Assembly: GCA_016839515.1 (NCBI GenBank)
Contig: JAEOUE010000134.1
Span: 1-39,927 of the forward strand
DNA: 39,927 nucleotides
Reading direction: 5' to 3'
Source of the DNA: Candidatus Hodarchaeum mangrovi
Lineage (GTDB): Archaea > Asgardarchaeota > Heimdallarchaeia > Hodarchaeales > Hodarchaeaceae
Part shown: positions 3,653 through 39,927 of the stretch, piece by piece
Numbering within the stretch: the first letter of the stretch is position 1
How the letters are laid out: each line of letters starts with the position of its first letter
Program-made: the position numbers and the translations under genes
The notes under the pieces: generated by a model
Seen by the model: only the letters and a program-made list of their open reading frames with translations
What the model was told of the DNA's origin: nothing
Databases searched by the model: none

Positions 3653-4423
3653 TTATAAATAATCATCTAGAGAACTTTGATTGACCATAAATTCAATTGA
3701 TTTCCCGAATCGGGCTTTATGATGTATAATTGATACATATTCTTTCCTTATTTCAAATCCAACCACGTCTCGTCCAGCTATTCGTGCAGCTAGAATTGTT
3801 CCTCCACTTCCTGAAAAAACATCACCTATTAAATCTGATGGTTTACTTGAGGTTCTAATTAATTTGTCTAAAAGTACAATAGGAAGTTGACATGGATGTC
3901 CTTTAATTCGATGTGGATCATTCCCACGATTGTATTCAGGCCAAAAAAAAACATCTTCATCATAATGTTTTTGCTTGAAGAAGGTATATTTTTTTCTATT
4001 CTTCACTAAAAGAAGAATATGATAATGACTTGTCGTAAATCTTCGCTTTGTATAAACTCCCCATGAAAAATGCCAAATGGCATGATTTAGTAGATGAAAA
4101 TCGGTTGTTTTTATAGCATTTAGTATGAATTGTAAATTTGTCCAACCAGAGATTATATAGAGACTTCCATCATCTGTTAGAGCTTCATAACAGACATTTA
4201 TCCATTCCTTTGAAAACTGAAAATAAGATTCTGGAGTAAAATTGTCCTCATAAAGATCGTAATCAATTGATCCATATTCATGACTGGATTTATTGAAAGA
4301 AATCCCAAAGGGAGGGTCAGCAATTATAAGATTAAATCTTCTTTCTAGGGCTTTTTTGGGAAGTGTTTCTATTACATTACCAATGATTAATTCATATGAT
4401 GATTGTCTTACCATGGAAAACAC
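3653..4423 (-). CDS. Beta-class N4/N6 DNA methyltransferase (alternative ATG start at 4414)
   Basis: Catalytic IIADPPF precedes HPCQLP and SAM-binding DVFSGSGGT, the beta motif order; GFEIRKEY follows. Confidence 0.9.
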   Translation of the reverse strand: MFSMVRQSSYELIIGNVIETLPKKALERRFNLIIADPPFGISFNKSSHEYGSIDYDLYEDNFTPESYFQFSKEWINVCYEALTDDGSLYIISGWTNLQFILNAIKTTDFHLLNHAIWHFSWGVYTKRRFTTSHYHILLLVKNRKKYTFFKQKHYDEDVFFWPEYNRGNDPHRIKGHPCQLPIVLLDKLIRTSSKPSDLIGDVFSGSGGTILAARIAGRDVVGFEIRKEYVSIIHHKARFGKSIEFMVNQSSLDDYL

Positions 4424-29603: not shown

Positions 29604-30593
29604 ATGCTTAGTGAGAAATGTAGTGAATGTGGTAGCAATTCTATACTGTACGATGATATGAGAGGAGAGCTAATATGTGAAGATTGTGGTTTAGTAGCTA
29701 ATAGCATAATTTTCAGTCGTGAACCAGAGTGGCGAGCCTATAACGCAGAGGAAGAAAAGTCAAAGATTCGAGTAGGTTTACCTGTAACTGCATTAAATAA
29801 TCGTGAAATGAGAACTGTGATCGGAGGAAATACAAAAGACTCTTATGGTAAAACATTGGATAATACTACTCAGGCGAAATTTGCTCGTTTATCGCAGATG
29901 GATGAACGGATTCAAGATAGAACCACACGGAATCTAAAAAGTGCTTTAGTTGAACTGAAAAGGATAAAATCTCACCTAAATATTGCTGATGATGTTGCTG
30001 AAACAGCTGTTTTATTTTATAAGAAGGCATTAAAACAAGATCTAATAAAAGGACGTTCTGTCATTGGAATGATGAGTGCAGCAACATATCTTGCATGCCG
30101 AAAAAAAGGCACATCAATCACACTGAAAGATACTGCTGAAGTAGCAAATATTAGCTCAAAAGAACTCGGGAGATGTATAAGAATTTATCTTCAGAATGTG
30201 AATATGAATAAAGAAACATCTCCAGATCCAACTACACTAATAAATCGTCTCGGAGAAAATCTTGGATTAACTATGTACACACAGAAAATCGCTATTGACA
30301 TTCTCATAGAGGCTAAAGAGAAAAAGTTAACAATTGGAAAGATACCAATGTCTTTAGCAGCTGCAGCAATCTATATTGCATCCATACAAACTGGAGAAAG
30401 AAGAACACAGCAACAAATTGCTGAACCAGCAAAAACAACACCAGTCACAATTCGTAACCGATTTAAGGAGCTTGCCAAAGGATTAGGCTTAAAAAATTTT
30501 GAAGTAAAACGTGGAGCAGCAGCAAAGCCAGTAATAATTGAAAATCCAACCCAATGGGTTAGAAAAAAACGAAAAGCTGCTAGAAATGATTAG
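29604..30593 (+). CDS. tfb: Transcription initiation factor IIB (TFB)
   Basis: Zn ribbon CSECG ... GELICEDCGLV, B-reader EPEWRAY, two cyclin repeats (KGRS ... AATYLACR; GKIPMSLAAAAIYIAS ... VTIRNRFKEL). Confidence 0.96.
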   Translation: MLSEKCSECGSNSILYDDMRGELICEDCGLVANSIIFSREPEWRAYNAEEEKSKIRVGLPVTALNNREMRTVIGGNTKDSYGKTLDNTTQAKFARLSQMDERIQDRTTRNLKSALVELKRIKSHLNIADDVAETAVLFYKKALKQDLIKGRSVIGMMSAATYLACRKKGTSITLKDTAEVANISSKELGRCIRIYLQNVNMNKETSPDPTTLINRLGENLGLTMYTQKIAIDILIEAKEKKLTIGKIPMSLAAAAIYIASIQTGERRTQQQIAEPAKTTPVTIRNRFKELAKGLGLKNFEVKRGAAAKPVIIENPTQWVRKKRKAARND

Positions 30594-31035
30594 ATCCTTT
30601 CTTCTTTTTTATCAATTCTTGTATGTCTTGTATGAAAAACTGTGCATCATTAATAAAATCCTTTATATTAATAATTAAAAGCGAACGTAAGCCAAAATGA
30701 CCATAAGCTATCTTAAGTGTGTCAATTGCTCTTCTTAAGCGTCTAGAACACTCAAAAGCAGGATTTATTTTGAACGTTTCCTCTAAAAAAATTAAATCAT
30801 TCACTCGTTGTTCATAAGCTTCTATCGGAAGGAAGAAACTCGATTCTTCAATATAACCTTGGAATCTTGCTTCAGGGAAATCTCTATAGTGTGTTAATAA
30901 GTTATCAGTTGCAATTATCATACTAATGACAATAGTTTTTAATGCAAACAGCTTATGCATCGTGTTTGTAGCATTGACATATGTACGAATAGATAAGTTG
31001 AGATAATCCCAAGCATCATCAACAATATCTACCAA
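30580..31035 (-). CDS. Hypothetical all-helical protein (weak HEPN-like appearance)
   Basis: 151-aa ORF co-oriented with yjbQ; amphipathic helices; 14-nt convergent overlap with tfb. Confidence 0.6.
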   Translation of the reverse strand: MVDIVDDAWDYLNLSIRTYVNATNTMHKLFALKTIVISMIIATDNLLTHYRDFPEARFQGYIEESSFFLPIEAYEQRVNDLIFLEETFKINPAFECSRRLRRAIDTLKIAYGHFGLRSLLIINIKDFINDAQFFIQDIQELIKKKKGSNHF

Positions 31036-31125: not shown

Positions 31126-31545
31126 TTATTCTCCTAAAATTGTAACCATGAGATTTCTATTTCGAGATTTTATATCTAGTTCGATAAATGCTATTTGTTG
31201 CCATGTTCCATGAACGATCCGTCCATTTTCAATAGGAAGAGTTAAGGAAGGACCAAGTAAAGAAGCTCTAACATGTGAATGTCCATTTTTATCATGCCAC
31301 GTCTGTTCATGAGCATAATTAATTTTTTTAGGTATAATTCGCTCCAAAAAGTTAGGAATATCCTTTAAAAGTCCAGGTTCATATTCTAATGTTATAATCG
31401 ATCCTGTTGATCCGGCATTGAATACATTTAAGATTCCTGTTGATATGCCAGATTCCATCACGAGTTTTTCCAAATTTGGAGTAATATTGATGATATCATT
31501 TTCGTTTGTCTTTAGTAAAGGCAATTTTGTCTGTATAACACTCAT
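31126..31545 (-). CDS. yjbQ: YjbQ/UPF0047 family protein (secondary thiamine-phosphate synthase-like)
   Basis: IINITP, GSTGSI ... EYEPGL, YAHE, NGHSHVRASLLGPS, GTWQQI ... ELD. Confidence 0.92.
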   Translation of the reverse strand: MSVIQTKLPLLKTNENDIINITPNLEKLVMESGISTGILNVFNAGSTGSIITLEYEPGLLKDIPNFLERIIPKKINYAHEQTWHDKNGHSHVRASLLGPSLTLPIENGRIVHGTWQQIAFIELDIKSRNRNLMVTILGE

Positions 31546-31606
31546 TTTTCCATCAAATTATATGGATTTTAATAAAGTCTTAATTTTTACTAATTAAAAA
31601 AATCTC

Positions 31607-34057
31607 CTAACGAGCTAAATGGACTAAGATTTGACCTTTTAGTATATTTCCTATTACATCTACAATCATAAAAGTAATCAGATATTTGTCTAAGGTGTGA
31701 TATTTATGATGTGATTTTAATTTAGGGACTTGAATTATCTTTTTACCTCTGAATTCCCGCCAAGATAAAAAAGAATAATCATTAAACTTATTTTTTGAAT
31801 ACCAGTCGACACTCCAGTAATCAACTAATGAATTAAATTCTAAATTTGGTTGAATATCATTATCCAACAGATTTAGCTGAAAGTCCTTTAAAGTAAGATT
31901 AACCTCTGTTGTTTTGATTTCTACATAGAAAATTGCCTTTATGTGAACAGGTTTCCTATTATACTCTCCCTCAAAAGAAAATTCAATAGAATCAGAAGGT
32001 AGAACTACTTTAGAACATTTTAATGGTGTTTTGACATCATTCTTATTTGTTAAATACAATAAATTAAACGGGGAAAAATTAGAATTTTTAAAAATTCGCT
32101 TTTTGATTTCTTGAATTGAATACGAACTTATATCAGCTCCTATCCACCCTCTTTTCATCTTTTCTGCTACTGCAAGAGTTGTTCCTGATCCTGCAAAAAA
32201 ATCTCCTATAAAATCCTTTTCAGAGGTTGAAATTTCTAGAATCCTTCTTAATAACACTTCAGAGTTTTCTGTAGGGTACCACGTTTTCTTTACTTTTTCA
32301 TAACCTGCAATATCAACCCAAATATTATCATTTGGGTATTCAATCTCAGCAAAATCTTGGAATTTACGTTTTTTCTTATTAATTTTAATTAAATTTAATT
32401 TCGAATCCTTTGAAACACGATAAACATAAATACTATCTGAATGAACAATTAAATGCTTTTGATGATATGCCTGTTTGTTTGAAAGATTCTTCTTCATCCG
32501 ACGGACAATTAATTCGACAACGAAATTTTTTTGGCCAAAAACCATATCCAATAATTCTTGCGCATAATGACCAAAATGATAATCAAATCTTACGAAAATA
32601 AATCCATCATCACAAAGAAGATGTTTCATTATTCTAATCCGAAAATAAAACCAATTTCGAAAAAAATCTATCGCATTAAATGATGGAGGAGTATTTTTGT
32701 AAGCTATTTCTTCAAAGAATTGTTCTGAATGATTCTTAGATCCCTTAAGTGGAATTATTATTTTTTCTGGAACTCCGGTAAAGAAAGGAGGATCAATATA
32801 AATCGCTTTTAACCGTTTTTCCCATTCTTTACGGAGTAAATGACATGAATGGAGATTATCACCACTGATTAAGAAATTTTCAATAGTATTATTGAAAATA
32901 AAACGTGAATCAGGAGAGAATCTTTCAGTATGAACCAATTTATATTCAGGATCGTGAATTGAATCTTTTTTTTGTTTAAAAAAAGAAAGAGATGATCTAA
33001 AAGGGATTTTTCGCTCGCAAAAATTCTTATCAGATACTTTAAAGTATTTTAATGCTGAACTCTGAGGAAAAATTGATATCAAATGCCCTATTCTTTCATT
33101 AGAAGGTTGAATTCCAATCCAAATTAACCTATGAGAGTTGCATATATCTTGATATAACGAAGGGTTTGGTGAAATTAAAATGAACTGATCTTGAGCTTCA
33201 TTATACATCTCAATTAACCGATTTAAGACCTTTTTTGAGAGGACCAATGATCCATTAGAGAATGAATAACTTTCCAGGTCTAACCAATTTGTATCAATAA
33301 TTTGTCCTTTTTTCTCTGTAACCCAGTATTCAGGTGATCCTTTACTATTCAATCTAATTTTTTTCTCTTTACATAATTCTAAAATCCTTTTTTGATTTAA
33401 TTTCCAATGCGTTCCTGTAGGAGGAGTTAAAATCATATGTTTCCCAGCAATTATGAAAGATTTTGGTTTTCCCTGCCCCTTAGAAACGAAAGAATGCCAA
33501 TAGCCTCCACTACTTTTTGTATTATATATCGGCTTTAAAGGATAAGGGAATTCCTTTGAATAAAGAAGAATATAATTAGTTCGTTCGAAAATTTCTGTAG
33601 TAGATCCATAAAAAACCTTAAATGGACTATCAATTATAATTTCGTTGATAAAATTTTCAATTCCAAAGATTTCATCTAAAAGAATTTTTATTTTTGATTT
33701 AACACTGCCATTAAGAGCAATAGCAAGGATTCCTTTATCAGATAGCAATTCGTATGTACTTTTAAATGATAAGTATATTTCATCCATGAACCCTTGAAAC
33801 TTTTTTGATTCTAATTTTATTAAAAATTGTTTAACATCTCTTAAACTTAAATTAGAATATTTTTCACGTAAAATGGGATTAGCTCTAAAGAAATAAAACG
33901 AAATATCTTGAAAAATATAATTAAATCTCTTTTTACTTGAAATTAACTGATTTAATACCTCTTCACGATTTCCTATTAGGATTGTTTGAGTTTCAATATT
34001 AGATAGTGATCCCTTATATTCACGGAGCTCATCAAACGTTCCAGTTGACTTTTCCAT
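31607..34057 (-). CDS. Type III Mod-like beta-class adenine methyltransferase with an internally duplicated MTase domain (N copy degenerate, C copy intact)
   Basis: C copy: SGDNL, IYIDPPFF (aa ~422), YPTENSEVLLRRIL, GDFFAGSGTT (aa ~621). N copy: IGNRE, YIFQDISF, LLDEIFGIENFINEII, PPTGTHWK TRD. C-terminal VDYWSVDW ... VDVIGN domain. Confidence 0.88.
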   Translation of the reverse strand: MEKSTGTFDELREYKGSLSNIETQTILIGNREEVLNQLISSKKRFNYIFQDISFYFFRANPILREKYSNLSLRDVKQFLIKLESKKFQGFMDEIYLSFKSTYELLSDKGILAIALNGSVKSKIKILLDEIFGIENFINEIIIDSPFKVFYGSTTEIFERTNYILLYSKEFPYPLKPIYNTKSSGGYWHSFVSKGQGKPKSFIIAGKHMILTPPTGTHWKLNQKRILELCKEKKIRLNSKGSPEYWVTEKKGQIIDTNWLDLESYSFSNGSLVLSKKVLNRLIEMYNEAQDQFILISPNPSLYQDICNSHRLIWIGIQPSNERIGHLISIFPQSSALKYFKVSDKNFCERKIPFRSSLSFFKQKKDSIHDPEYKLVHTERFSPDSRFIFNNTIENFLISGDNLHSCHLLRKEWEKRLKAIYIDPPFFTGVPEKIIIPLKGSKNHSEQFFEEIAYKNTPPSFNAIDFFRNWFYFRIRIMKHLLCDDGFIFVRFDYHFGHYAQELLDMVFGQKNFVVELIVRRMKKNLSNKQAYHQKHLIVHSDSIYVYRVSKDSKLNLIKINKKKRKFQDFAEIEYPNDNIWVDIAGYEKVKKTWYPTENSEVLLRRILEISTSEKDFIGDFFAGSGTTLAVAEKMKRGWIGADISSYSIQEIKKRIFKNSNFSPFNLLYLTNKNDVKTPLKCSKVVLPSDSIEFSFEGEYNRKPVHIKAIFYVEIKTTEVNLTLKDFQLNLLDNDIQPNLEFNSLVDYWSVDWYSKNKFNDYSFLSWREFRGKKIIQVPKLKSHHKYHTLDKYLITFMIVDVIGNILKGQILVHLAR

Positions 34058-34113
34058 TGGAATTAACCCATTATATAAGTATCCATTTTCAATTACATAT
34101 AGGAATCTTAATT

Positions 34114-35121
34114 TTATCCCTTAAATGACAAAGCAACCCAGAAATTAAATAATAAGCGGAGATTTCCAGAAGAACGAAAAAGATACTCAAGATCTTTTGG
34201 AGAGATTTTGTCTTGATTCTTACGTAATTTATCTAATAATTCACCAATAGTAGGCAATTTCATCTCATAGTCAGCTTCAATTGCTTTAACAGACTTACTA
34301 GGATTTAAATTGTTGTCTAGTAACTCTAAACCATTAGAATTTTGATCTATCATCAATAATGTTCTTATAATACCTTCTTTTTCTTCACCTTCGGAAATTC
34401 GATTATGGGTTCCTCTCCATTTAGTTTTTTTCCCAACACCTCTTTCACCACCTCCTGGTAATAAAATCATATTTGATCCTGTTATTCTCCACCTAGCGGA
34501 ATCGCATCCATCAACTAAATATTGAAGATCTTGCATTAAGCTTGGAGCTCCAACGCCTAAAGCCCAAATTTTGGTATTTTTTAAATTTTTTTCGGAGAAA
34601 AAATCTCTAATTTCTTCAATAATGGGAAAAAGCTTATTTCCATGTCCACCACCACTTCGCATTAAAGATACTAATCTTCCGATAAAAATCCACTTTAAAT
34701 TTGATTCAATATCAGTTATTGAATTAATTAAATCTAATTGATTATAAGGAAGGACTGGATATACTTCTAATGAGTGTAGTTTGTTATAATTCGATATTAT
34801 TTTATCATCAGGATAATCTAATGTGATTTTGAATATGTTTGGATCTTGATTATTTAGTTCAATATATAAATCTTTTAAATCTTCTAATTCTATTGTGATT
34901 TTATTTTTCCGATTTAACGCGGAAAAAGCTCCAGAATCACAAATTAATAATCCATCCCAATCTAGAATTTCTCTAATTCCCTTTTTTTCTAATTGTTTAA
35001 ACGCACGAGGACTAGTTAAGAAGTCAATAGCAGAAACCATAAGGGCATCTGGCTTTATAGTCCAGTCAAAAATCCATGGTTTAAACCGTGAAAAAATTGG
35101 TGTTCCCATAGCAAAAATCAA
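34114..35121 (-). CDS. TGT/DpdA-like guanine transglycosylase-fold protein A
   Basis: TIM-barrel motif order: MIFAMG, LICDSGAFS, ITLDYP, WIFIG, IWALGVG, DGCDSARW, C-terminal RLLFNF; no Zn cluster or PUA domain. Confidence 0.72.
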   Translation of the reverse strand: MIFAMGTPIFSRFKPWIFDWTIKPDALMVSAIDFLTSPRAFKQLEKKGIREILDWDGLLICDSGAFSALNRKNKITIELEDLKDLYIELNNQDPNIFKITLDYPDDKIISNYNKLHSLEVYPVLPYNQLDLINSITDIESNLKWIFIGRLVSLMRSGGGHGNKLFPIIEEIRDFFSEKNLKNTKIWALGVGAPSLMQDLQYLVDGCDSARWRITGSNMILLPGGGERGVGKKTKWRGTHNRISEGEEKEGIIRTLLMIDQNSNGLELLDNNLNPSKSVKAIEADYEMKLPTIGELLDKLRKNQDKISPKDLEYLFRSSGNLRLLFNFWVALSFKG

Positions 35122-35621
35122 TTGAATTCCCTTAATACCATTTGATACCTTTTAGGATTTTTGAAATATTTTTCTAAAAATCTTACTAACTTTTGTTGTC
35201 CAACTCCTAGTCCACCCATTGAATCTATTTCAATAGTGGTCGGAATGAAGTCTTGAATCCCCTCAACACTCAATAAATATACTTTTCCCATGAGAATATA
35301 AATCAAATCAAAATATTCTTTCTTATTCCACTCTTGAACGGATGAAATGACACTTAAACGATGTTTCTGTGCAATTTTGGGTGTCATTTTTAAATCATAA
35401 TATTCAATTAAATCAAAACTATGAAGAAATCCATATTTTGCTGATATTATTCCCAGAAATAGATTTTCAGGCCAGTATGGTAATCTTTTTCGTAAGACCT
35501 GATACATTGGTCCTAAATAAGCATCAATCGCTTTCACGGGTTTAACTTTGAGATCTGGGTTCTTTTTCTTACCACAAGACAATATTAAGAGAATTTTTGA
35601 GTCTTTCAAAGTATGTATCAA
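35118..35621 (-). CDS. DUF6884-like (YaaA/DUF5591-related) small protein
   Basis: LILSCGKKK, KAIDAYLGPMY, IISAKYGF, IEYYDLKM, LMGKVY, GGLGVGQQ; TTGA stop/start overlap with TGT-like A. Confidence 0.75.
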   Translation of the reverse strand: MIHTLKDSKILLILSCGKKKNPDLKVKPVKAIDAYLGPMYQVLRKRLPYWPENLFLGIISAKYGFLHSFDLIEYYDLKMTPKIAQKHRLSVISSVQEWNKKEYFDLIYILMGKVYLLSVEGIQDFIPTTIEIDSMGGLGVGQQKLVRFLEKYFKNPKRYQMVLREFN

Positions 35622-35678
35622 CTCTTAAAAACAACTAAAAAGGATGAAATATTACTCTGTATAATTGGATTCTTTATC

Positions 35679-36626
35679 ATGATTTTATATTTAGGGATTG
35701 TGCCTGGTTTCTTCCCTCACATTGAAGAGGCATTGATCTTAAAAAAGATGAAAGAAATAAACGCAGGATTGATGTTTTCTTATTGGACATTTCGAAAATT
35801 CATACCTAAGATTATATCTAAAGGAATACATGATTTTTTTTCATATGAAGGACCGATCATGATTGACTCAGGAGCTTACAGTGCTTTCAATATGGGCATT
35901 TCTATTTCCTGTGAGGATTATGCAAATTTTCTAAAGAAAATTGACTTAAAATTAAAAGATAAAATTGTTAATCTTGACCTGATAGGAGATTATCAAAAAT
36001 CATTTTCCAATTGGAAATATCTTTCCAAAATGATAGATACTTCTATCATCCCAGTCATTCATTTTCCAGAAATAAATTCTAATTATCCGAATTGTAAAAT
36101 TATTGGATTAGGAGGTATGGTTCCATCCTTAAAAATAAATCAACCTGGAAGTATTTATAATGTAGGAAAATGGGTCGTATTAATTAGCTCCAAAAATCCT
36201 GGTAAAGAATATCATGGATTTGGAATAGGAAGTCCATTTAATCAAATCATTTTTTGGAATTATTTATCCTCTTTAGATTGGATTGGTTGGCGAAGAAATG
36301 CTGCAGTATGTGAATGTTATACCCCTGAAGGGTCAAAAACTGTAACAGAGGCAAGAAAAAAACCAACCAAAAGATCTTCATTAAGTCAATCCTTATTCGA
36401 TCAATATAAACCACCTTTTATTGAAAGCTTCAATTTACTTAGCTTACCAGGAACAAAAGGGTGGAAATACAGAGCATTATGGAATGTTTGGTGGTTTTTA
36501 AATTGTCAGAATTGGCAAGTAGTAATAGATCAGTCCAAATATGTAAGAAGCATGAAAGAAAGAATGAGAAAGATAATTTCTAATACAAATAATAAATTTT
36601 TAAGGAATACACAAAATTATTCCTAG
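35679..36626 (+). CDS. TGT/DpdA-like guanine transglycosylase-fold protein B (start reassigned from 35613 to ATG 35679)
   Basis: MILYLG, LMFSY, IMIDSGAYS, VNLDLIGD, IIPVIH, IGLGGMVP, YHGFGIG, SSLDWIGW, C-terminal RALWNV. Confidence 0.75.
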   Translation: MILYLGIVPGFFPHIEEALILKKMKEINAGLMFSYWTFRKFIPKIISKGIHDFFSYEGPIMIDSGAYSAFNMGISISCEDYANFLKKIDLKLKDKIVNLDLIGDYQKSFSNWKYLSKMIDTSIIPVIHFPEINSNYPNCKIIGLGGMVPSLKINQPGSIYNVGKWVVLISSKNPGKEYHGFGIGSPFNQIIFWNYLSSLDWIGWRRNAAVCECYTPEGSKTVTEARKKPTKRSSLSQSLFDQYKPPFIESFNLLSLPGTKGWKYRALWNVWWFLNCQNWQVVIDQSKYVRSMKERMRKIISNTNNKFLRNTQNYS

Positions 36627-37491: not shown

Positions 37492-39927
37492 CTAAATAAT
37501 TGGGTAATCAAAAAAATAATCCTCTATTAACGATTGAATTATAAAATCAGTCAAGACTTTTTTATATACCTCTAAAATTCTTGAATAATTGAACTTTCGA
37601 AGGCTAGAATATTTCTTTAGATTAATTTCATTTCCGATTTTAAAATTATAATACATCTTTTCCCATTCATCAAATTGAATTGGTTTTATCAATAATCTTA
37701 ATTTATCAGATAGAAATACAGATCTGTTTTTTCCTTTTATTTGATATAATTCATTGATCAGAGCACCAATTAATTTTTCCTCGAAATATGTTTGAATGGG
37801 AATTCCTAATTCTAAGGCGGACTTTTCCTCTGTAAGGAATATTAGATATTCAGCGAGTTGTGCGAAAAGGATACTGTACTTTAGAAAATCTTTGTGAATA
37901 GGAAAGAACTCAAGAGGTTCCCCAAAAAATTCGAGTTGATTTCCCTTTTTTTTACCCATCCAATAAAACCAAAAATAGGCCAACTGGGAGTTAAGAATTA
38001 ATGATAACCCTTTAAGTAATCTTGAACCTTCAGATAAACTCATTGATGATATAAAATAAACGTCCTGAGCAGCAAACCATGGATATGAATTATACGCAAA
38101 TGAATTAATCATCCTTCTCTGAGGTGTAATAATTTTTGGGGATAAAAAAATATCAATTTTTCGAGGTCTATTGAGATAAGGAAATTTATCTAAAGAGCGT
38201 TGAAGGACAGATTCAAAGGTGTCCAAATGTCTTTTTATATTAGGAAGTGATTCAATATCAGATATATTCTTATCAAGATATATTATCATTTTATTCGTTG
38301 AAATAGAGGAGTGAAATCTTGAAATATCTGAACTTTTGTAAAAAAATTTTACAAGCTCTACTTCTTGAAGAAGGAATGTCATTAAAAGGTTTTTATCTCT
38401 AGGGTGATTTAGATTCAGTATAAAGACTCCTGAATTTATGTGTTTTTCATCAATTTTATATTTATTCACTTGAATCCTAGAAATCTTATTCATTCCTGTT
38501 ATAATTCCCTCTCTTACCTTAAATCCTGATAAACGTAACTGTTTAGAAGATGAGATTATCTTTTTGACTAATTCTGAAACATTTTGAGGAATAAAATGAA
38601 AGTATGGAGTAAAACCATTAAAACGAATTTGGCCTTTTGGAATATTATAATGAGTTTGAAGATCTATCTTCTTAACTAAATCAGTACCTACAGGATATTT
38701 TTTCGTAAATTGAGTACATTTAATAAGAATATCTTCTTTTTGAGTCTTTTTAAGAGTAAAGGAATTTACATGGATTCCAAGTGCTGAATTAAAGACTGAA
38801 TTATCTCCAAAATTAATATATTTATCAATTTCTGTTTCTCTAAAGATTCTTTCTCTAAGGGTTTTTCCTCCTGAAGCTGTTATCCAATAATTTGAAGTTA
38901 AAAAGGTCATATACCCATTTTCTTGAAGTAGGTCTATCGCACGGTGAACAAAAAGATACCATAAATCCATCTTACCTTCATAATAATTAGGAAAAACTCG
39001 CGAGAGAACTCTGAAAAATTCTTTATTACCACTTTCTCCCTTATAAGGAGGATTACATAGAATAACACTAAATCCTTTAGAAAAATTAAGAATAAGAGGA
39101 TATCTTAAGGGCCAATGAAATAATTGCCTAAAATAATAATCTGGAACATCTTTTGAATTATTATACAAGGAAGTGAAAGAATCTGATATTCTTGTATTTA
39201 AAGAATCTAAAAGATGATCTAATTCTCTAAAAACCAGATTTTTTCCAGAAAGAAGCCAAATTTTTTTAAGAATGTTTGATAATGTGTATAATTCCTTAAA
39301 ATTCCTTAAAATAATTAATTTATCGGAACTTTTAAGCTTCTGTATTAAATGACAATTATTACTTGGGATAATATGTTCTACGGATTGAATGGCATGAAGG
39401 AGATAAACTTGAAGGGATTTACTAATTTGAATATTCTCCTCAAGAGGAAATAGATGCTTTTTTTCACTTATTTGATCTAAAATTTTAAAATTAAAGACAT
39501 TAGAAACTAATCCTAAAATCGAATTTCCCTCTTTTATGTTATCAAATATAATATCAAAATTATAAGCATCAAAGTCGAATTCTTTCTCAATAGTGTTAAT
39601 CGCTGATAGGAATAATCTTAATTTAATGATTTTAACTGCAATTGGATCTAATTCGACACCAAAAAGATTGTTCGGACAAATAAGCTTTGTTATTATTTTA
39701 AATTTGAAATGGTTTAAAGAGGTCGATCCATCAAGGATTTTTTGTTTTAAATCACCATACTCGTCAAGTTCATAATAATAGAAAATAGGAACATTAGCGG
39801 AGTTGATTGCAGCAATTTTCCTCCTCAAAGACAAATAAATTTCAATTAGAAATATTAAGCTTGATTCTAAAAAATTTCCTGTTCCTGCTGTTGGATCTAG
39901 AACTTTTAAATGCTGTAGAATATCAAA
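37492..39927 (-). CDS. Gamma-class (Eco57I-like) N6-adenine DNA methyltransferase, 5' end outside the window
   Basis: The frame stays open upstream of the track start at 39834 and reads FDILQHLKVLDPTAGTGNFL (motif I). It continues LFGVELD, GNSI, FHWPLRYP, LCNPPY, DLWYLF and a TaqI_C-like tail (PKIITPQR ... LILNSQL). Confidence 0.9.
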   Translation of the reverse strand, partial: FDILQHLKVLDPTAGTGNFLESSLIFLIEIYLSLRRKIAAINSANVPIFYYYELDEYGDLKQKILDGSTSLNHFKFKIITKLICPNNLFGVELDPIAVKIIKLRLFLSAINTIEKEFDFDAYNFDIIFDNIKEGNSILGLVSNVFNFKILDQISEKKHLFPLEENIQISKSLQVYLLHAIQSVEHIIPSNNCHLIQKLKSSDKLIILRNFKELYTLSNILKKIWLLSGKNLVFRELDHLLDSLNTRISDSFTSLYNNSKDVPDYYFRQLFHWPLRYPLILNFSKGFSVILCNPPYKGESGNKEFFRVLSRVFPNYYEGKMDLWYLFVHRAIDLLQENGYMTFLTSNYWITASGGKTLRERIFRETEIDKYINFGDNSVFNSALGIHVNSFTLKKTQKEDILIKCTQFTKKYPVGTDLVKKIDLQTHYNIPKGQIRFNGFTPYFHFIPQNVSELVKKIISSSKQLRLSGFKVREGIITGMNKISRIQVNKYKIDEKHINSGVFILNLNHPRDKNLLMTFLLQEVELVKFFYKSSDISRFHSSISTNKMIIYLDKNISDIESLPNIKRHLDTFESVLQRSLDKFPYLNRPRKIDIFLSPKIITPQRRMINSFAYNSYPWFAAQDVYFISSMSLSEGSRLLKGLSLILNSQLAYFWFYWMGKKKGNQLEFFGEPLEFFPIHKDFLKYSILFAQLAEYLIFLTEEKSALELGIPIQTYFEEKLIGALINELYQIKGKNRSVFLSDKLRLLIKPIQFDEWEKMYYNFKIGNEINLKKYSSLRKFNYSRILEVYKKVLTDFIIQSLIEDYFFDYPII

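What the first reader, a model, noticed from the sequence alone, without database searches (positions are those of the whole stretch)
31607..34057. Single-chain pseudo-heterodimeric methyltransferase: inactive TRD-bearing half fused to an active TRD-poor half
Seen: the 816-aa protein has two collinear beta-MTase units. Paired segments, N copy then C copy: TILIGNREEVL/FLISGDNLHSC; YIFQDISF/IYIDPPFF; ELLSDKGILAI/HLLCDDGFIFV; LLDEIFGIENFINEII/LLDMVFGQKNFVVELI; TNYILLY/SDSIYVY; IDTNWLDL/NDNIWVDI; FILISPNPS/FIGDFFAGSG; LIWIGIQ/RGWIGAD. The N copy has lost both the catalytic and SAM-binding motifs but keeps an ~85-aa TRD (PPTGTHWK ... PEYW). The C copy has both motifs but only ~27 aa at the TRD position. 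Established: in the EcoP15I Mod2 dimer one subunit recognises DNA and the other methylates, and METTL3-METTL14 is an active/inactive beta-class pair. Inference: that division of labour has been fixed here by duplication and reciprocal loss. No Res helicase-nuclease lies next to it.
Basis: partly seen in the sequence, partly recalled or inferred. Interest (0 to 1): 0.8.

Follow-up and report, generated by a model that had tools for sequence, protein, structure and literature searches.

The report
Fused dead-reader plus live-writer DNA methylase
One gene of an Asgard archaeon joins a chemically dead copy of a restriction-system DNA methylase that keeps the DNA-reading insert to a live copy that has lost it, so a job normally shared by two identical subunits appears to be built into a single protein.

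Summary
Window 31607-34057 (minus strand) is one intact 816-aa ORF with two collinear beta-class N6/N4 methyltransferase units.

- **N unit:** it passes Pfam's cut-off on its own and folds like Type III Mod subunits. It lacks motif IV (DPPY) and motif I (FxGxG), yet carries a Mod-type TRD that is the best-conserved part of the protein.
- **C unit:** it keeps DPPF and FxGSG but has only about 28 residues where the TRD should be.
- **Packing:** the two units are predicted to pack through equivalent elements (ipSAE 0.83 against a best control of 0.20).
- **Relatives:** single-unit archaeal Mods carry both the motifs and the same TRD. One Asgard genome has reader-like Mod, Res and writer-like Mod as three adjacent genes.
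- **Res:** that Res type was found in 0 of 22 genomes of the window's genus.

Best reading: an orphan single-chain reader-writer DNA adenine methylase, derived from a heterodimeric Type III system.

This scan noted the same architecture six times before in other genomes. No paper describing it turned up. New here: trees of the two units, conservation by region, the Res census, contig support, and a neighbouring TGT/DpdA-like module.

The parts
31607..34057 (-). Whole gene: 816-aa tandem beta-class methyltransferase, stop codon included
   Evidence: ORF list and translation. Pfam PF01555 scores 127.3 bits with 2 stretches. PADLOC's best hit is MTase_III, E 1.9e-52.
33053..34000 (-). N unit (residues 20-335): catalytically degenerate MTase fold, the predicted reader
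   Evidence: Pfam PF01555 33.4 bits on its own. The AF2 model of the N half has pLDDT 79.8 and pTM 0.75. Its top Foldseek hits are EcoP15I Mod 4zcf_A (E 1.6e-14), then 6k0w and 7dsu.
33896..33919 (-). Eroded motif IV of the N unit (residues 47-54; D-I-S where the live copy has D-P-P)
   Evidence: It aligns column for column with the DPPF of the C unit. DPP[YF] is present in 0 of 32 N units.
33278..33532 (-). TRD of the N unit (residues 176-260)
   Evidence: Mean pairwise identity is 74.5%, with 34 of 85 columns invariant, against 30-38% for the N scaffold. It aligns to the TRD region of HP Mod 6k0w and to the TRD of single-unit P0059.
33158..33184 (-). Eroded motif I of the N unit (residues 292-300)
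   Evidence: It aligns with the FxGSG of the C unit. FxGxG is present in 0 of 33 N units.
32897..33052 (-). Linker between the units (residues 336-387)
   Evidence: Mean pairwise identity 17.7% with 0 of 52 columns invariant. pLDDT is 54-65 over most of it. Contigs of 4 of 4 runs bridge it.
32054..32896 (-). C unit (residues 388-668): active-looking MTase, the predicted writer
   Evidence: Pfam PF01555 108.2 bits. Mean pairwise identity 61-67%. Sequence hits to 6k0w and 4zcf.
32783..32794 (-). Motif IV, DPPF (residues 422-425)
   Evidence: D422, P423 and P424 are invariant in 33 of 33. DPPF in 32 and DPPH in 1 of 33.
32333..32416 (-). TRD remnant of the C unit (residues 548-575, about 28 aa)
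   Evidence: The gaps of the BLASTP alignment to P0059 fall here. The G244 writer-like Mod and the f33 tandem share the same short state.
32264..32278 (-). Conserved YPTEN loop before motif I (residues 594-598)
   Evidence: Y594, P595, T596, E597 and N598 are invariant. Present in P0059 and lost in the N unit.
32177..32200 (-). Motif I, F-x-G-S-G-T-T (residues 620-627), the SAM-binding loop
   Evidence: F620, G623, S624, G625 and T626 are invariant. Present in 33 of 33.
31610..32053 (-). C-terminal all-beta domain (residues 669-816), PKD/Ig-like
   Evidence: The AF2 model has only strands over 681-813, with pLDDT mostly 84-93. It is homologous to the C-terminus of P0059-type Mods, which give weak PKD_4 hits.

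Best explanation
The gene encodes an orphan, single-chain pseudo-heterodimeric beta-class DNA methyltransferase.

[quoted passage not shown] The C unit has lost the TRD. It binds SAM through FxGSG, flips out the target base and methylates it through DPPF, most likely at adenine N6. The two units pack against each other through equivalent helix and strand elements, like the two subunits of a Type III Mod2 dimer. A poorly conserved linker of about 50 residues joins them.

The protein descends from a heterodimeric Type III restriction system (reader Mod, Res, writer Mod) that lost its Res when or after the two Mod genes fused.

**Shown:** the two folds, the motif states, the conservation pattern, the relatives and the absence of the cognate Res.

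**Inferred:** division of labour, DNA and adenine as substrate, and orphan (non-restriction) use.
For: **Two folds.**
- Pfam PF01555 passes on each half separately.
- The N-half model's best structural matches are EcoP15I Mod (E 1.6e-14), HP Mod and Mbo45V Mod.
- The full-length model has pLDDT 80.7 and pTM 0.84, with the same Mods on top.

**Motif states, 33 sequences.**
- The C unit always has DPP[F/H] and FxGSGT.
- The N unit never has either.

**Selection pattern.**
- TRD 74.5% mean pairwise identity, 34 of 85 columns invariant.
- N scaffold 30-38%.
- C MTase 61-67%.
- Linker 18%.
- N-unit branches are several times longer than C-unit branches once the TRD columns are removed.

**Packing.**
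- ipSAE 0.83, best of 3 controls 0.20. This mark was reached by 58 of 80 solved complexes and 2 of 110 mismatched pairs.
- The runs agree in at least 89% of contacts, and partner pLDDT is at least 79.
- The contacts are reciprocal between equivalent elements: C577-578 touches N157-160, and C536-539 touches N255-256.

**Ancestry.**
- Single-unit P0059 has all the motifs plus the same TRD.
- G244 has a 599-aa reader-like Mod, an 872-aa Res (ResIII plus endonuclease domain) and a 611-aa writer-like Mod in a row.
- Trees place the G244 reader with the N units (100/100) and the G244 writer with the C units (98/94).
- Other relatives are also followed by a Res: the Odin 621-aa Mod and the G036 791-aa Mod.

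**Orphan state.**
- No ResIII frame lies on the contig.
- The G244-type Res was found in 0 of 22 genomes of the genus, while the same query matched G244 itself and G001 at 35% identity.

**Conservation in the genus.**
- Tandem-sized frames occur in the own genome and in 18 of 21 other genomes of genus g1.

**Mechanism by analogy.**
- In EcoP15I one Mod reads the site and the other methylates (PMC4490356, passages read).
- Beta-class MTases are argued to need a dimer, because a subunit's catalytic site and its DNA-binding surface face away from each other (PMC7544214, passages read).
Against: - No activity, substrate or target sequence was measured.
- The packing score comes from models that have seen Mod2-like dimers, so it may reflect likeness to solved structures. 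I had no coordinates, so the model was not superposed on 4zcf.
- The N unit keeps the aspartate of motif IV (D51 in at least 90% of sequences), so a residual or altered function of that pocket is not excluded.
- The C-terminal beta domain, or the C unit itself, could contribute to or even determine recognition. TRD-poor single-unit relatives with Res exist, such as the Odin 621-aa Mod.
- The genome holds 16 ResIII-domain frames elsewhere, and it is 91% complete.
- The sister relation of the N and C clades is weak (69/15).
Confidence: 0.72

Rival explanations
1. The protein still belongs to a Type III restriction system whose Res is encoded elsewhere in the genome. The fused Mod both protects host DNA and recruits that Res.
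For: The family descends from Mods with an adjacent Res. The genome has 16 frames with a ResIII domain on other contigs. The assembly is 91% complete in 348 contigs.
Against: The cognate Res type was found in 0 of 22 genomes of the genus, including a one-contig genome rated 96% complete. The same query did match G244 and G001. ResIII is a generic helicase domain that matched in all 14 control genomes. The fused N unit lacks the roughly 250-residue C-terminal extension of the G244 reader Mod. In EcoP15I the reader subunit's CTD contacts Res (PMC4490356, passage read).
Confidence: 0.07
2. The N unit is a decaying remnant with no role. Recognition is done by the C unit together with the C-terminal beta domain.
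For: TRD-poor single-unit relatives with a C-terminal beta domain exist and sit beside a Res. The N scaffold evolves fast.
Against: The TRD of the N unit is the most conserved segment of the whole protein (74.5% against 61-67% for the live MTase). The N unit is kept intact in every tandem-sized frame seen. Dead reader-like proteins also persist as separate genes.
Confidence: 0.06
3. The substrate is RNA or single-stranded nucleic acid rather than duplex DNA, as for METTL3-METTL14. The conserved TRD would then read a fixed cellular RNA.
For: An invariant TRD and single-copy conservation in a genus fit a housekeeping target. Beta-class enzymes can act on ssDNA or RNA (PMC7544214, passages read).
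Against: The closest relatives are Mods of Type III systems with Res. All best structural and sequence matches are DNA MTases. METTL3-14 and MTA1 match about ten orders of magnitude worse (about 4e-5 to 6e-5 against 1e-14 to 1e-15). No MT-A70 Pfam hit appeared at E up to 10.
Confidence: 0.07
4. The methylase works as one component of a larger DNA-modification module together with the neighbouring TGT/DpdA-like and DUF6884 genes.
For: The genes for DUF6884, a TGT-like protein, the MTase, UPF0047 and a 151-aa protein run in the same direction in 11 of 11 loci of the genus examined. The TGT-like genes match a phage 'queuine tRNA-ribosyltransferase' family at E 2.4e-17 and 6.6e-6.
Against: All 11 loci are from one genus, in which the whole 18-kb region is syntenic, TFIIB and HflX included. 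An MFS transporter, and in one genome a further 533-aa frame, sit between the TGT-like gene and the MTase in four loci. Neither the f33 tandem nor the seven single-unit relatives examined have such neighbours.
Confidence: 0.08

Closest known systems
EcoP15I Mod2 and other Type III Mod homodimers (PDB 4zcf, 6k0w, 7dsu)
   Same: Beta-class fold with the TRD inserted after motif VIII. These are the best sequence and structure matches for both units. In EcoP15I one subunit reads and the other methylates (PMC4490356, passages read). Relatives of this gene sit beside a Res.
   Different: Here the two roles are hard-wired in one chain. No Res is adjacent or detectable in the genus. The TRD is invariant rather than variable.
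METTL3-METTL14 and ciliate MTA1-MTA9 (MT-A70 heterodimers)
   Same: A beta-class active subunit paired with a partner whose motif IV is eroded (PMC7544214, passages read). Both appear as weak structural matches.
   Different: They are two separate polypeptides of the MT-A70 family. There is no Pfam MT-A70 hit here, and the structural matches are far weaker than those to the Mods. In those complexes recognition relies on other domains or subunits, not on a TRD kept in the dead subunit.
Three-gene reader Mod - Res - writer Mod system of genome G244 (locus L048), not described in any paper I found
   Same: A reader-like Mod with the same TRD (37% identity to the N half) and a TRD-poor writer-like Mod (48% identity to the C half). 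They group with the N and C units in the trees.
   Different: The genes are separate, with a ResIII-endonuclease gene between them.
PRMT7 (protein arginine methyltransferase with two tandem modules; recalled, not tested here)
   Same: A single chain forming an intramolecular pseudo-dimer in which only one module is catalytic. This is recalled; the listing only showed reviews that contain the phrase 'tandem methyltransferase domains'.
   Different: An unrelated substrate (protein arginine) and MTase class, with no TRD exchange between modules.
CcrM (orphan beta-class cell-cycle DNA adenine MTase)
   Same: An orphan beta-class enzyme that works as a dimer. It is a structural match (6pbd).
   Different: CcrM is a homodimer of identical active subunits. 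The NCBIfam CcrM model scores 47.4 bits against a cut-off of 830.

Membership tests
Beta-class amino (N6A/N4C) DNA methyltransferases, Pfam PF01555 | The profile match reaches Pfam's gathering score | tested here: met
   Whole protein 127.3 bits, N half alone 33.4, C half alone 108.2, against a cut-off of 26.7.
Beta-class amino (N6A/N4C) DNA methyltransferases, Pfam PF01555 | Motif order IV (DPPY/F), then TRD, then motif I (FxGxG), with both motifs intact | tested here: met
   Met by the C unit (DPPF at 422-425, FxGSG at 620-625, invariant) but with only about 28 residues at the TRD position. The N unit keeps the order and the TRD but neither motif.
Beta-class amino (N6A/N4C) DNA methyltransferases, Pfam PF01555 | Rossmann-type MTase fold matching solved members | tested here: met
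   Foldseek E 1e-15 to 1e-9 against 6k0w, 4zcf, 7dsu, 6pbd, 1g60, 1eg2 and 1boo, for the full model and for the N half alone.
Type III restriction-modification Mod subunit | An adjacent Res gene (SF2 helicase plus endonuclease) | tested here: not met
   No ResIII frame on the contig. The cognate Res type was found in 0 of 22 genomes of the genus, with positive controls. The feature is met in relatives G244, G001 and G036.
Type III restriction-modification Mod subunit | Closest to Type III Mods by sequence profile | tested here: met
   PADLOC's best hit is MTase_III at E 1.9e-52. The top PDB sequence hits are Mods.
Type III restriction-modification Mod subunit | Acts as a homodimer of identical subunits | tested here: not met
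   Two non-identical units lie in one chain and are predicted to pack on each other (ipSAE 0.83 against control 0.20). The oligomeric state of the whole protein was not tested.
Type III restriction-modification Mod subunit | Methylates adenine N6 on one strand of a short asymmetric site | not testable with these tools
   A DPPF-type motif IV fits N6-adenine enzymes (from general knowledge). No methylome or assay is available.
MT-A70 family (METTL3/METTL14, MTA1/MTA9) | Match to the MT-A70 profile, or closest structural similarity to its members | tested here: not met
   No MT-A70 hit at E up to 10 on either half. Foldseek E is about 4e-5 to 6e-5, against 1e-15 for the Mods.
CcrM-type orphan MTase (NCBIfam NF050803) | Score above the equivalog cut-off | tested here: not met
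   47.4 bits against a cut-off of 830.

The most novel reading that the evidence does not exclude
In this genus, labelled Hodarchaeales in public records, a former restriction methylase has become a housekeeping, sequence-specific m6A writer with no restriction role. Its reader and writer are fixed in one chain. This would be an independent prokaryotic run of the same path (active subunit plus eroded partner) that gave eukaryotes METTL3-METTL14 and MTA1-MTA9. It happened in archaea of the Asgard group, and the split three-gene intermediate still exists in a sister lineage. The fusion may have happened twice: once in the window's genus and once in family f33.
Probability: 0.3. Interest if true: 0.75.

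Novelty: new variant of a known kind. Interest (0 to 1): 0.6.

Why it matters
Beta-class DNA and RNA amino-methyltransferases are thought to need a dimer in which one subunit reads and the other writes. Direct evidence for this rests on a few structures.

This family is a natural experiment. The idea therefore becomes testable with one polypeptide and simple mutants.

The three forms found here document an evolutionary path from homodimer to obligate heterodimer to single chain. They are complete single-unit Mods, the split reader Mod - Res - writer Mod operon, and the fused Res-less gene. The path parallels the origin of the eukaryotic m6A writers.

The operon also points to an undescribed heterodimeric form of Type III restriction systems. 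A compact single-chain reader-writer could serve as a scaffold for engineered site-specific methylases.

Tried and rejected
- translated the C half one base out of frame. Corrected.
- **Link to 7-deazaguanine methylation:** the phage dPreQ1 methylase DpdM is a DUF3109 protein unrelated to PF01555 (PMC10516641, passages read), so I dropped the idea that this MTase is a DpdM analogue.
- **TGT-like or DUF6884 neighbours elsewhere:** none beside seven single-unit relatives in other Asgard families (BLASTP E < 1e-3), and none beside the f33 tandem.
- **The search for homologous proteins with the N half:** it returned only 9 proteins, mostly fragments, because of its word filter. The profile search was needed to see the stand-alone reader-like proteins.
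- **Model coordinates:** none are laid in the script box, so no superposition on 4zcf was possible.
- **RNA evidence:** no RNA holder was listed among the 24 runs.
- **Earlier notes:** searches by place and by words gave nothing. The search by sequence gave six notes.
- **Literature:** searches for a described single-chain beta-class pseudo-dimer gave 0 papers or only unrelated and PRMT papers. An Asgard/R-M search listed three papers, which I did not read beyond the listing.
- **DUF6884:** a search found only the Pfam paper and one genome-mining preprint.
- **Supplementary files:** none were opened.
Full report
**1. Observation**

Window 31607-34057 holds one uninterrupted 816-aa ORF on the minus strand. 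I call the first 370 residues the N half and the rest the C half.

Each half passes Pfam's N6_N4_Mtase gathering score of 26.7 bits on its own:
- N half: 33.4 bits, residues 83-287.
- C half: 108.2 bits.

BLASTP of one half against the other gives 28% identity over 53 residues, E 7e-5. The N half alone finds solved Type III Mod subunits by sequence: Mbo45V 7dsu at 1.2e-5, H. pylori Mod 6k0w at 5e-4 (that alignment runs into the TRD), and EcoP15I Mod 4zcf at 0.05.

**2. Family and motif states**

A word-indexed search returned 1753 proteins with E <= 0.001 among 8000 scored candidates; the best 120 were listed. The first 50 rows are 662-867 aa long and cover 82-100% of the query at 37-100% identity. 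Every one of those rows that carries an organism name is labelled as an Asgard archaeon: Hod-, Heimdall-, Prometh-, Thor- or Hermod-archaeota.

I aligned 33 of these and scored the motifs:
- C unit: DPPF in 32 and DPPH in 1; F/Y-x-G-S-G-T in 33 of 33; an invariant YPTEN loop.
- N unit: DPP[YF] in 0 of 32 (one row is truncated there); FxGxG in 0 of 33.

Conservation is strikingly uneven:

| Region | Mean pairwise identity | Invariant columns |
|---|---|---|
| N-unit TRD (176-260) | 74.5% | 34 of 85 |
| N scaffold | 30-38% | 7 of 228 |
| Linker | 17.7% | 0 of 52 |
| C-unit MTase | 61-67% | 68 of 253 |
| C-terminal domain | 31.8% | 5 of 148 |

The part that varies most in ordinary restriction methylases is therefore the most constrained part here. 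The dead catalytic scaffold around it drifts.

**3. Structure**

- The full-length AF2 model (33-row alignment) has mean pLDDT 80.7 and pTM 0.84. Its best PDB matches are H. pylori Mod, CcrM, EcoP15I Mod and Mbo45V Mod, at E 1.7e-15 to 5e-12.
- The N half modelled alone has pLDDT 79.8 and pTM 0.75. It matches EcoP15I Mod best (4zcf_A, 1.6e-14), then 6k0w and 7dsu. The proposed refutation 'the N half is not an MTase fold' therefore fails.
- METTL3-METTL14 and MTA1 complexes appear only at about 4e-5 to 6e-5.

I folded the N unit (1-345) and the C part (372-816) as two chains:
- ipSAE 0.83, best of three controls 0.20. The mark was reached by 58 of 80 solved complexes and by 2 of 110 mismatched pairs.
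- The runs agree in at least 89% of contacts, and partner pLDDT is at least 79.
- The interface uses equivalent elements of both units: N 117-160 and 253-260 against C 493-540 and 574-581.
- Contacts are reciprocal. C577-578 touches N157-160, and C536-539 touches N255-256.

That is what a pseudo-two-fold dimer should show. The pass may reflect likeness to solved Mod2-type dimers. It shows that likeness, not binding. I had no coordinates, so the model was not superposed on 4zcf.

**4. Relatives and origin**

*Complete single-unit relatives.* A 620-aa Thermoplasma-type protein, P0059, is a complete single unit. It has DPPF, the same TRD, YPTEN, FxGSG and a PKD-like C-terminus. The N half aligns to it at 38% over 200 aa including the TRD. 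The C half aligns at 35% over 378 aa, with the gaps at the TRD. This shows reciprocal loss directly.

*These relatives are Type III Mods.* A ResIII-domain gene follows the Mod in the Odin-like genome G001 (621-aa Mod, 845-aa Res) and in G036 (791-aa Mod, 969-aa Res).

*A split three-gene form.* Earlier notes of this scan said that relatives carry the two copies as separate genes around a Res. I tested this. In G244 (family f31), three co-directional, abutting genes encode:
- a 599-aa reader-like Mod, with the TRD, D-L-P-Y at motif IV and FxGSG still present;
- an 872-aa Res, with ResIII and endonuclease domains;
- a 611-aa writer-like Mod, with DPPF, the short TRD remnant, YPTEN, FxGSG and the beta C-terminus, 48% identical to the C half.

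*Tree.* I built a careful tree of 61 MTase units with the TRD columns removed (quick versions). I kept 14 of the 33 tandem proteins to limit run time. It shows:
- The N units form one clade with the two stand-alone reader-like proteins (100/100).
- The C units form one clade with the G244 writer (98/94).
- Rooted on the window's own small MTase, both clades lie inside the TRD-bearing P0059-type group, away from the TRD-poor Asgard single units (branch 100/98).
- The N and C clades are sisters in the best tree, but weakly (69/15).
- Inside both clades the G244 genes pair with the units of the f33 tandem (100/93 and 93/84), apart from the genus g1 tandems. This implies either two fusions or one fission.

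*Profile search.* An N-unit profile search of 1.84 billion cluster representatives gave 49 proteins at E <= 1e-30. I read motifs in 20 of the 150 listed:
- Four further tandem representatives, of 763-857 aa.
- Stand-alone reader-like proteins of 582-599 aa without either motif (4 of 4 checked).
- Proteins of 289-342 aa with partial motifs.
- More distant proteins of 331-337 aa with both motifs.

**5. Distribution and the missing Res**

Searching 201 Asgard genomes with the full-length profile gave matches spanning the whole profile only in the window's genus g1. That was 10 genomes, the own one included, plus one cut by a contig end; 64 further matches were not listed.

Searching 400 genomes with the stand-alone reader P0128 gave tandem-sized frames in the own genome and in 18 of the 21 other g1 genomes. 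The three exceptions were:
- G219, 70% complete, with only a weak partial match;
- G220, 71% complete;
- G062, where one search found the C half at a contig start.

A tandem also occurs in G356 of family f33 (778 aa).

The window is its whole contig, and no ResIII frame lies on it. The G244-type Res was found in 0 of 22 g1 genomes, and in neither G356 nor G036. It did match G244 itself and G001 at 35% identity. Sixteen other ResIII-domain frames exist in the genome, but that domain is generic: it matched in 14 of 14 control genomes.

**6. Not an assembly artefact**

Twenty runs from 8 studies hold at least half of the sampled words of the gene. I laid 4 of them, from 4 studies. In all 4, contigs bridge the junction between the units:
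- X1: 31400-34047
- X3: 31962-34300
- X2: 32591-33157
- X10: 32787-33228

There were no insertions, deletions or joints. One of the runs may be the source sample.

**7. Mechanism**

In the EcoP15I structure, ModA's TRD makes most of the base-specific contacts, while the target adenine enters ModB's DPPY pocket (PMC4490356, passages read). A review argues that in beta-class enzymes the catalytic site and the DNA-binding surface of one subunit face away from each other, so that a dimer is required (PMC7544214, passages read). That review's text has no match for 'fused' or 'single polypeptide'.

Mapped onto this protein, the N unit corresponds to ModA (reader) and the C unit to ModB (writer). The DPPF-type motif and the Type III ancestry point to N6-adenine in DNA. 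These steps are inferred.

An invariant TRD, single-copy conservation in a genus and the loss of Res together suggest a fixed target and a non-restriction role. What that role is remains unknown.

**8. Context**

In 11 of 11 g1 loci examined, the gene lies in a co-directional run of DUF6884, a TGT-like gene, the MTase, UPF0047 and a 151-aa ORF. In four loci an MFS transporter is inserted after the TGT-like gene. A second TGT-like paralogue is transcribed divergently.

The evidence for what these neighbours are:
- **TGT-like proteins:** they carry a D-S-G-A-F motif at the position of the TGT catalytic motif, and 13 of 14 give weak Pfam TGT hits. Their profile hits archaeosine TGT 1iq8 at 4.3e-4. 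They match a phage 'queuine tRNA-ribosyltransferase' PHROG at 2.4e-17 and 6.6e-6.
- **DUF6884 protein:** it is YaaA-like, and gives a weak PADLOC DpdC hit at 0.0072.

In bacteria DpdA inserts preQ0 into DNA and DpdC converts it to ADG (PMC10164549, passages read). This looks like a candidate Dpd-like module.

All 11 loci are from one genus with general synteny, and the f33 tandem lacks these neighbours. I therefore treat the link to the methylase as unproven.

**9. Novelty**

Dimeric division of labour and heterodimers with a dead partner are known. I found no paper describing a single-chain fusion with reciprocal loss, or the split reader Mod - Res - writer Mod operon. Those searches cover only the held library.

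This scan had already noted the same architecture in six windows of four other genomes. My results agree with those notes and confirm their lead on the split system.

My rating is a new variant of a known kind, of solid interest to methyltransferase and restriction-modification specialists.

Noticed in passing
window 34114-35121 (-), 35118-35621 (-), 35613-36626 (+): Two TGT-superfamily paralogues of about 335 aa flank a 167-aa DUF6884/YaaA-like gene. The TGT-like proteins carry a D-S-G-A-F motif, match a phage 'queuine tRNA-ribosyltransferase' PHROG at 6.6e-6 and 2.4e-17, and as a profile match ArcTGT 1iq8 at 4.3e-4. The DUF6884 protein gives PADLOC hits to PDC-M57A at 2e-6 and, weakly, to DpdC at 0.0072. 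Together they are a candidate Dpd-like 7-deazaguanine DNA-modification module on an Asgard chromosome, conserved in 11 of 11 loci of the genus.
   Followed up: partly
window 37492-39834 (-): A 780-aa Eco57I-type gamma-class methylase. Its PADLOC Type IIG match (3.5e-26) covers only positions 589-1235 of a 1247-position model, so the nuclease part is not evident. Homologues of 929-1072 aa lie near the tandem gene in 6 of 9 loci.
   Followed up: no
L048 6271-12519 (-) (genome G244): A three-gene operon of reader-like Mod (599 aa), Res (872 aa) and writer-like TRD-poor Mod (611 aa). It is apparently a Type III system with a heterodimeric Mod, which I did not find described in the papers searched.
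   Followed up: partly
L040 1456-8250 (genome G356, family f33): A second lineage of tandem dead-plus-live methylase (778 aa; DPPY and FxGSG in the C unit only). It sits among a 349-aa MTase with an SPPY motif, a dCTP-deaminase-like gene (214 aa) and a 733-aa protein with MTase domains, which looks like a DNA-modification island.
   Followed up: no
proteins P0136, P0137, P0140, P0141: Stand-alone reader-like proteins of 582-599 aa with the TRD but with no recognisable motif IV or motif I (4 of 4 checked). They look like dead reader subunits kept as separate genes. Their gene neighbourhoods could not be looked up.
   Followed up: partly
trees: The N-unit and C-unit subtrees have the same shape. 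In both, the split G244 genes pair with the f33 tandem, apart from the genus g1 tandems. So either the fusion happened twice or G244 underwent a fission.
   Followed up: partly
window 3653-4423 (-): A 256-aa frame with a weak match to the C unit (E 3.2e-6, 30% identity over query residues 534-657). It appears to be a second, small beta-class methylase on the same contig, and I used it as the outgroup.
   Followed up: no
window 30580-31035 (-) and 31126-31545 (-): A 139-aa UPF0047 gene and a 151-aa ORF with no family hit follow the methylase in the same direction in all loci of the genus examined. Their function is unknown.
   Followed up: no
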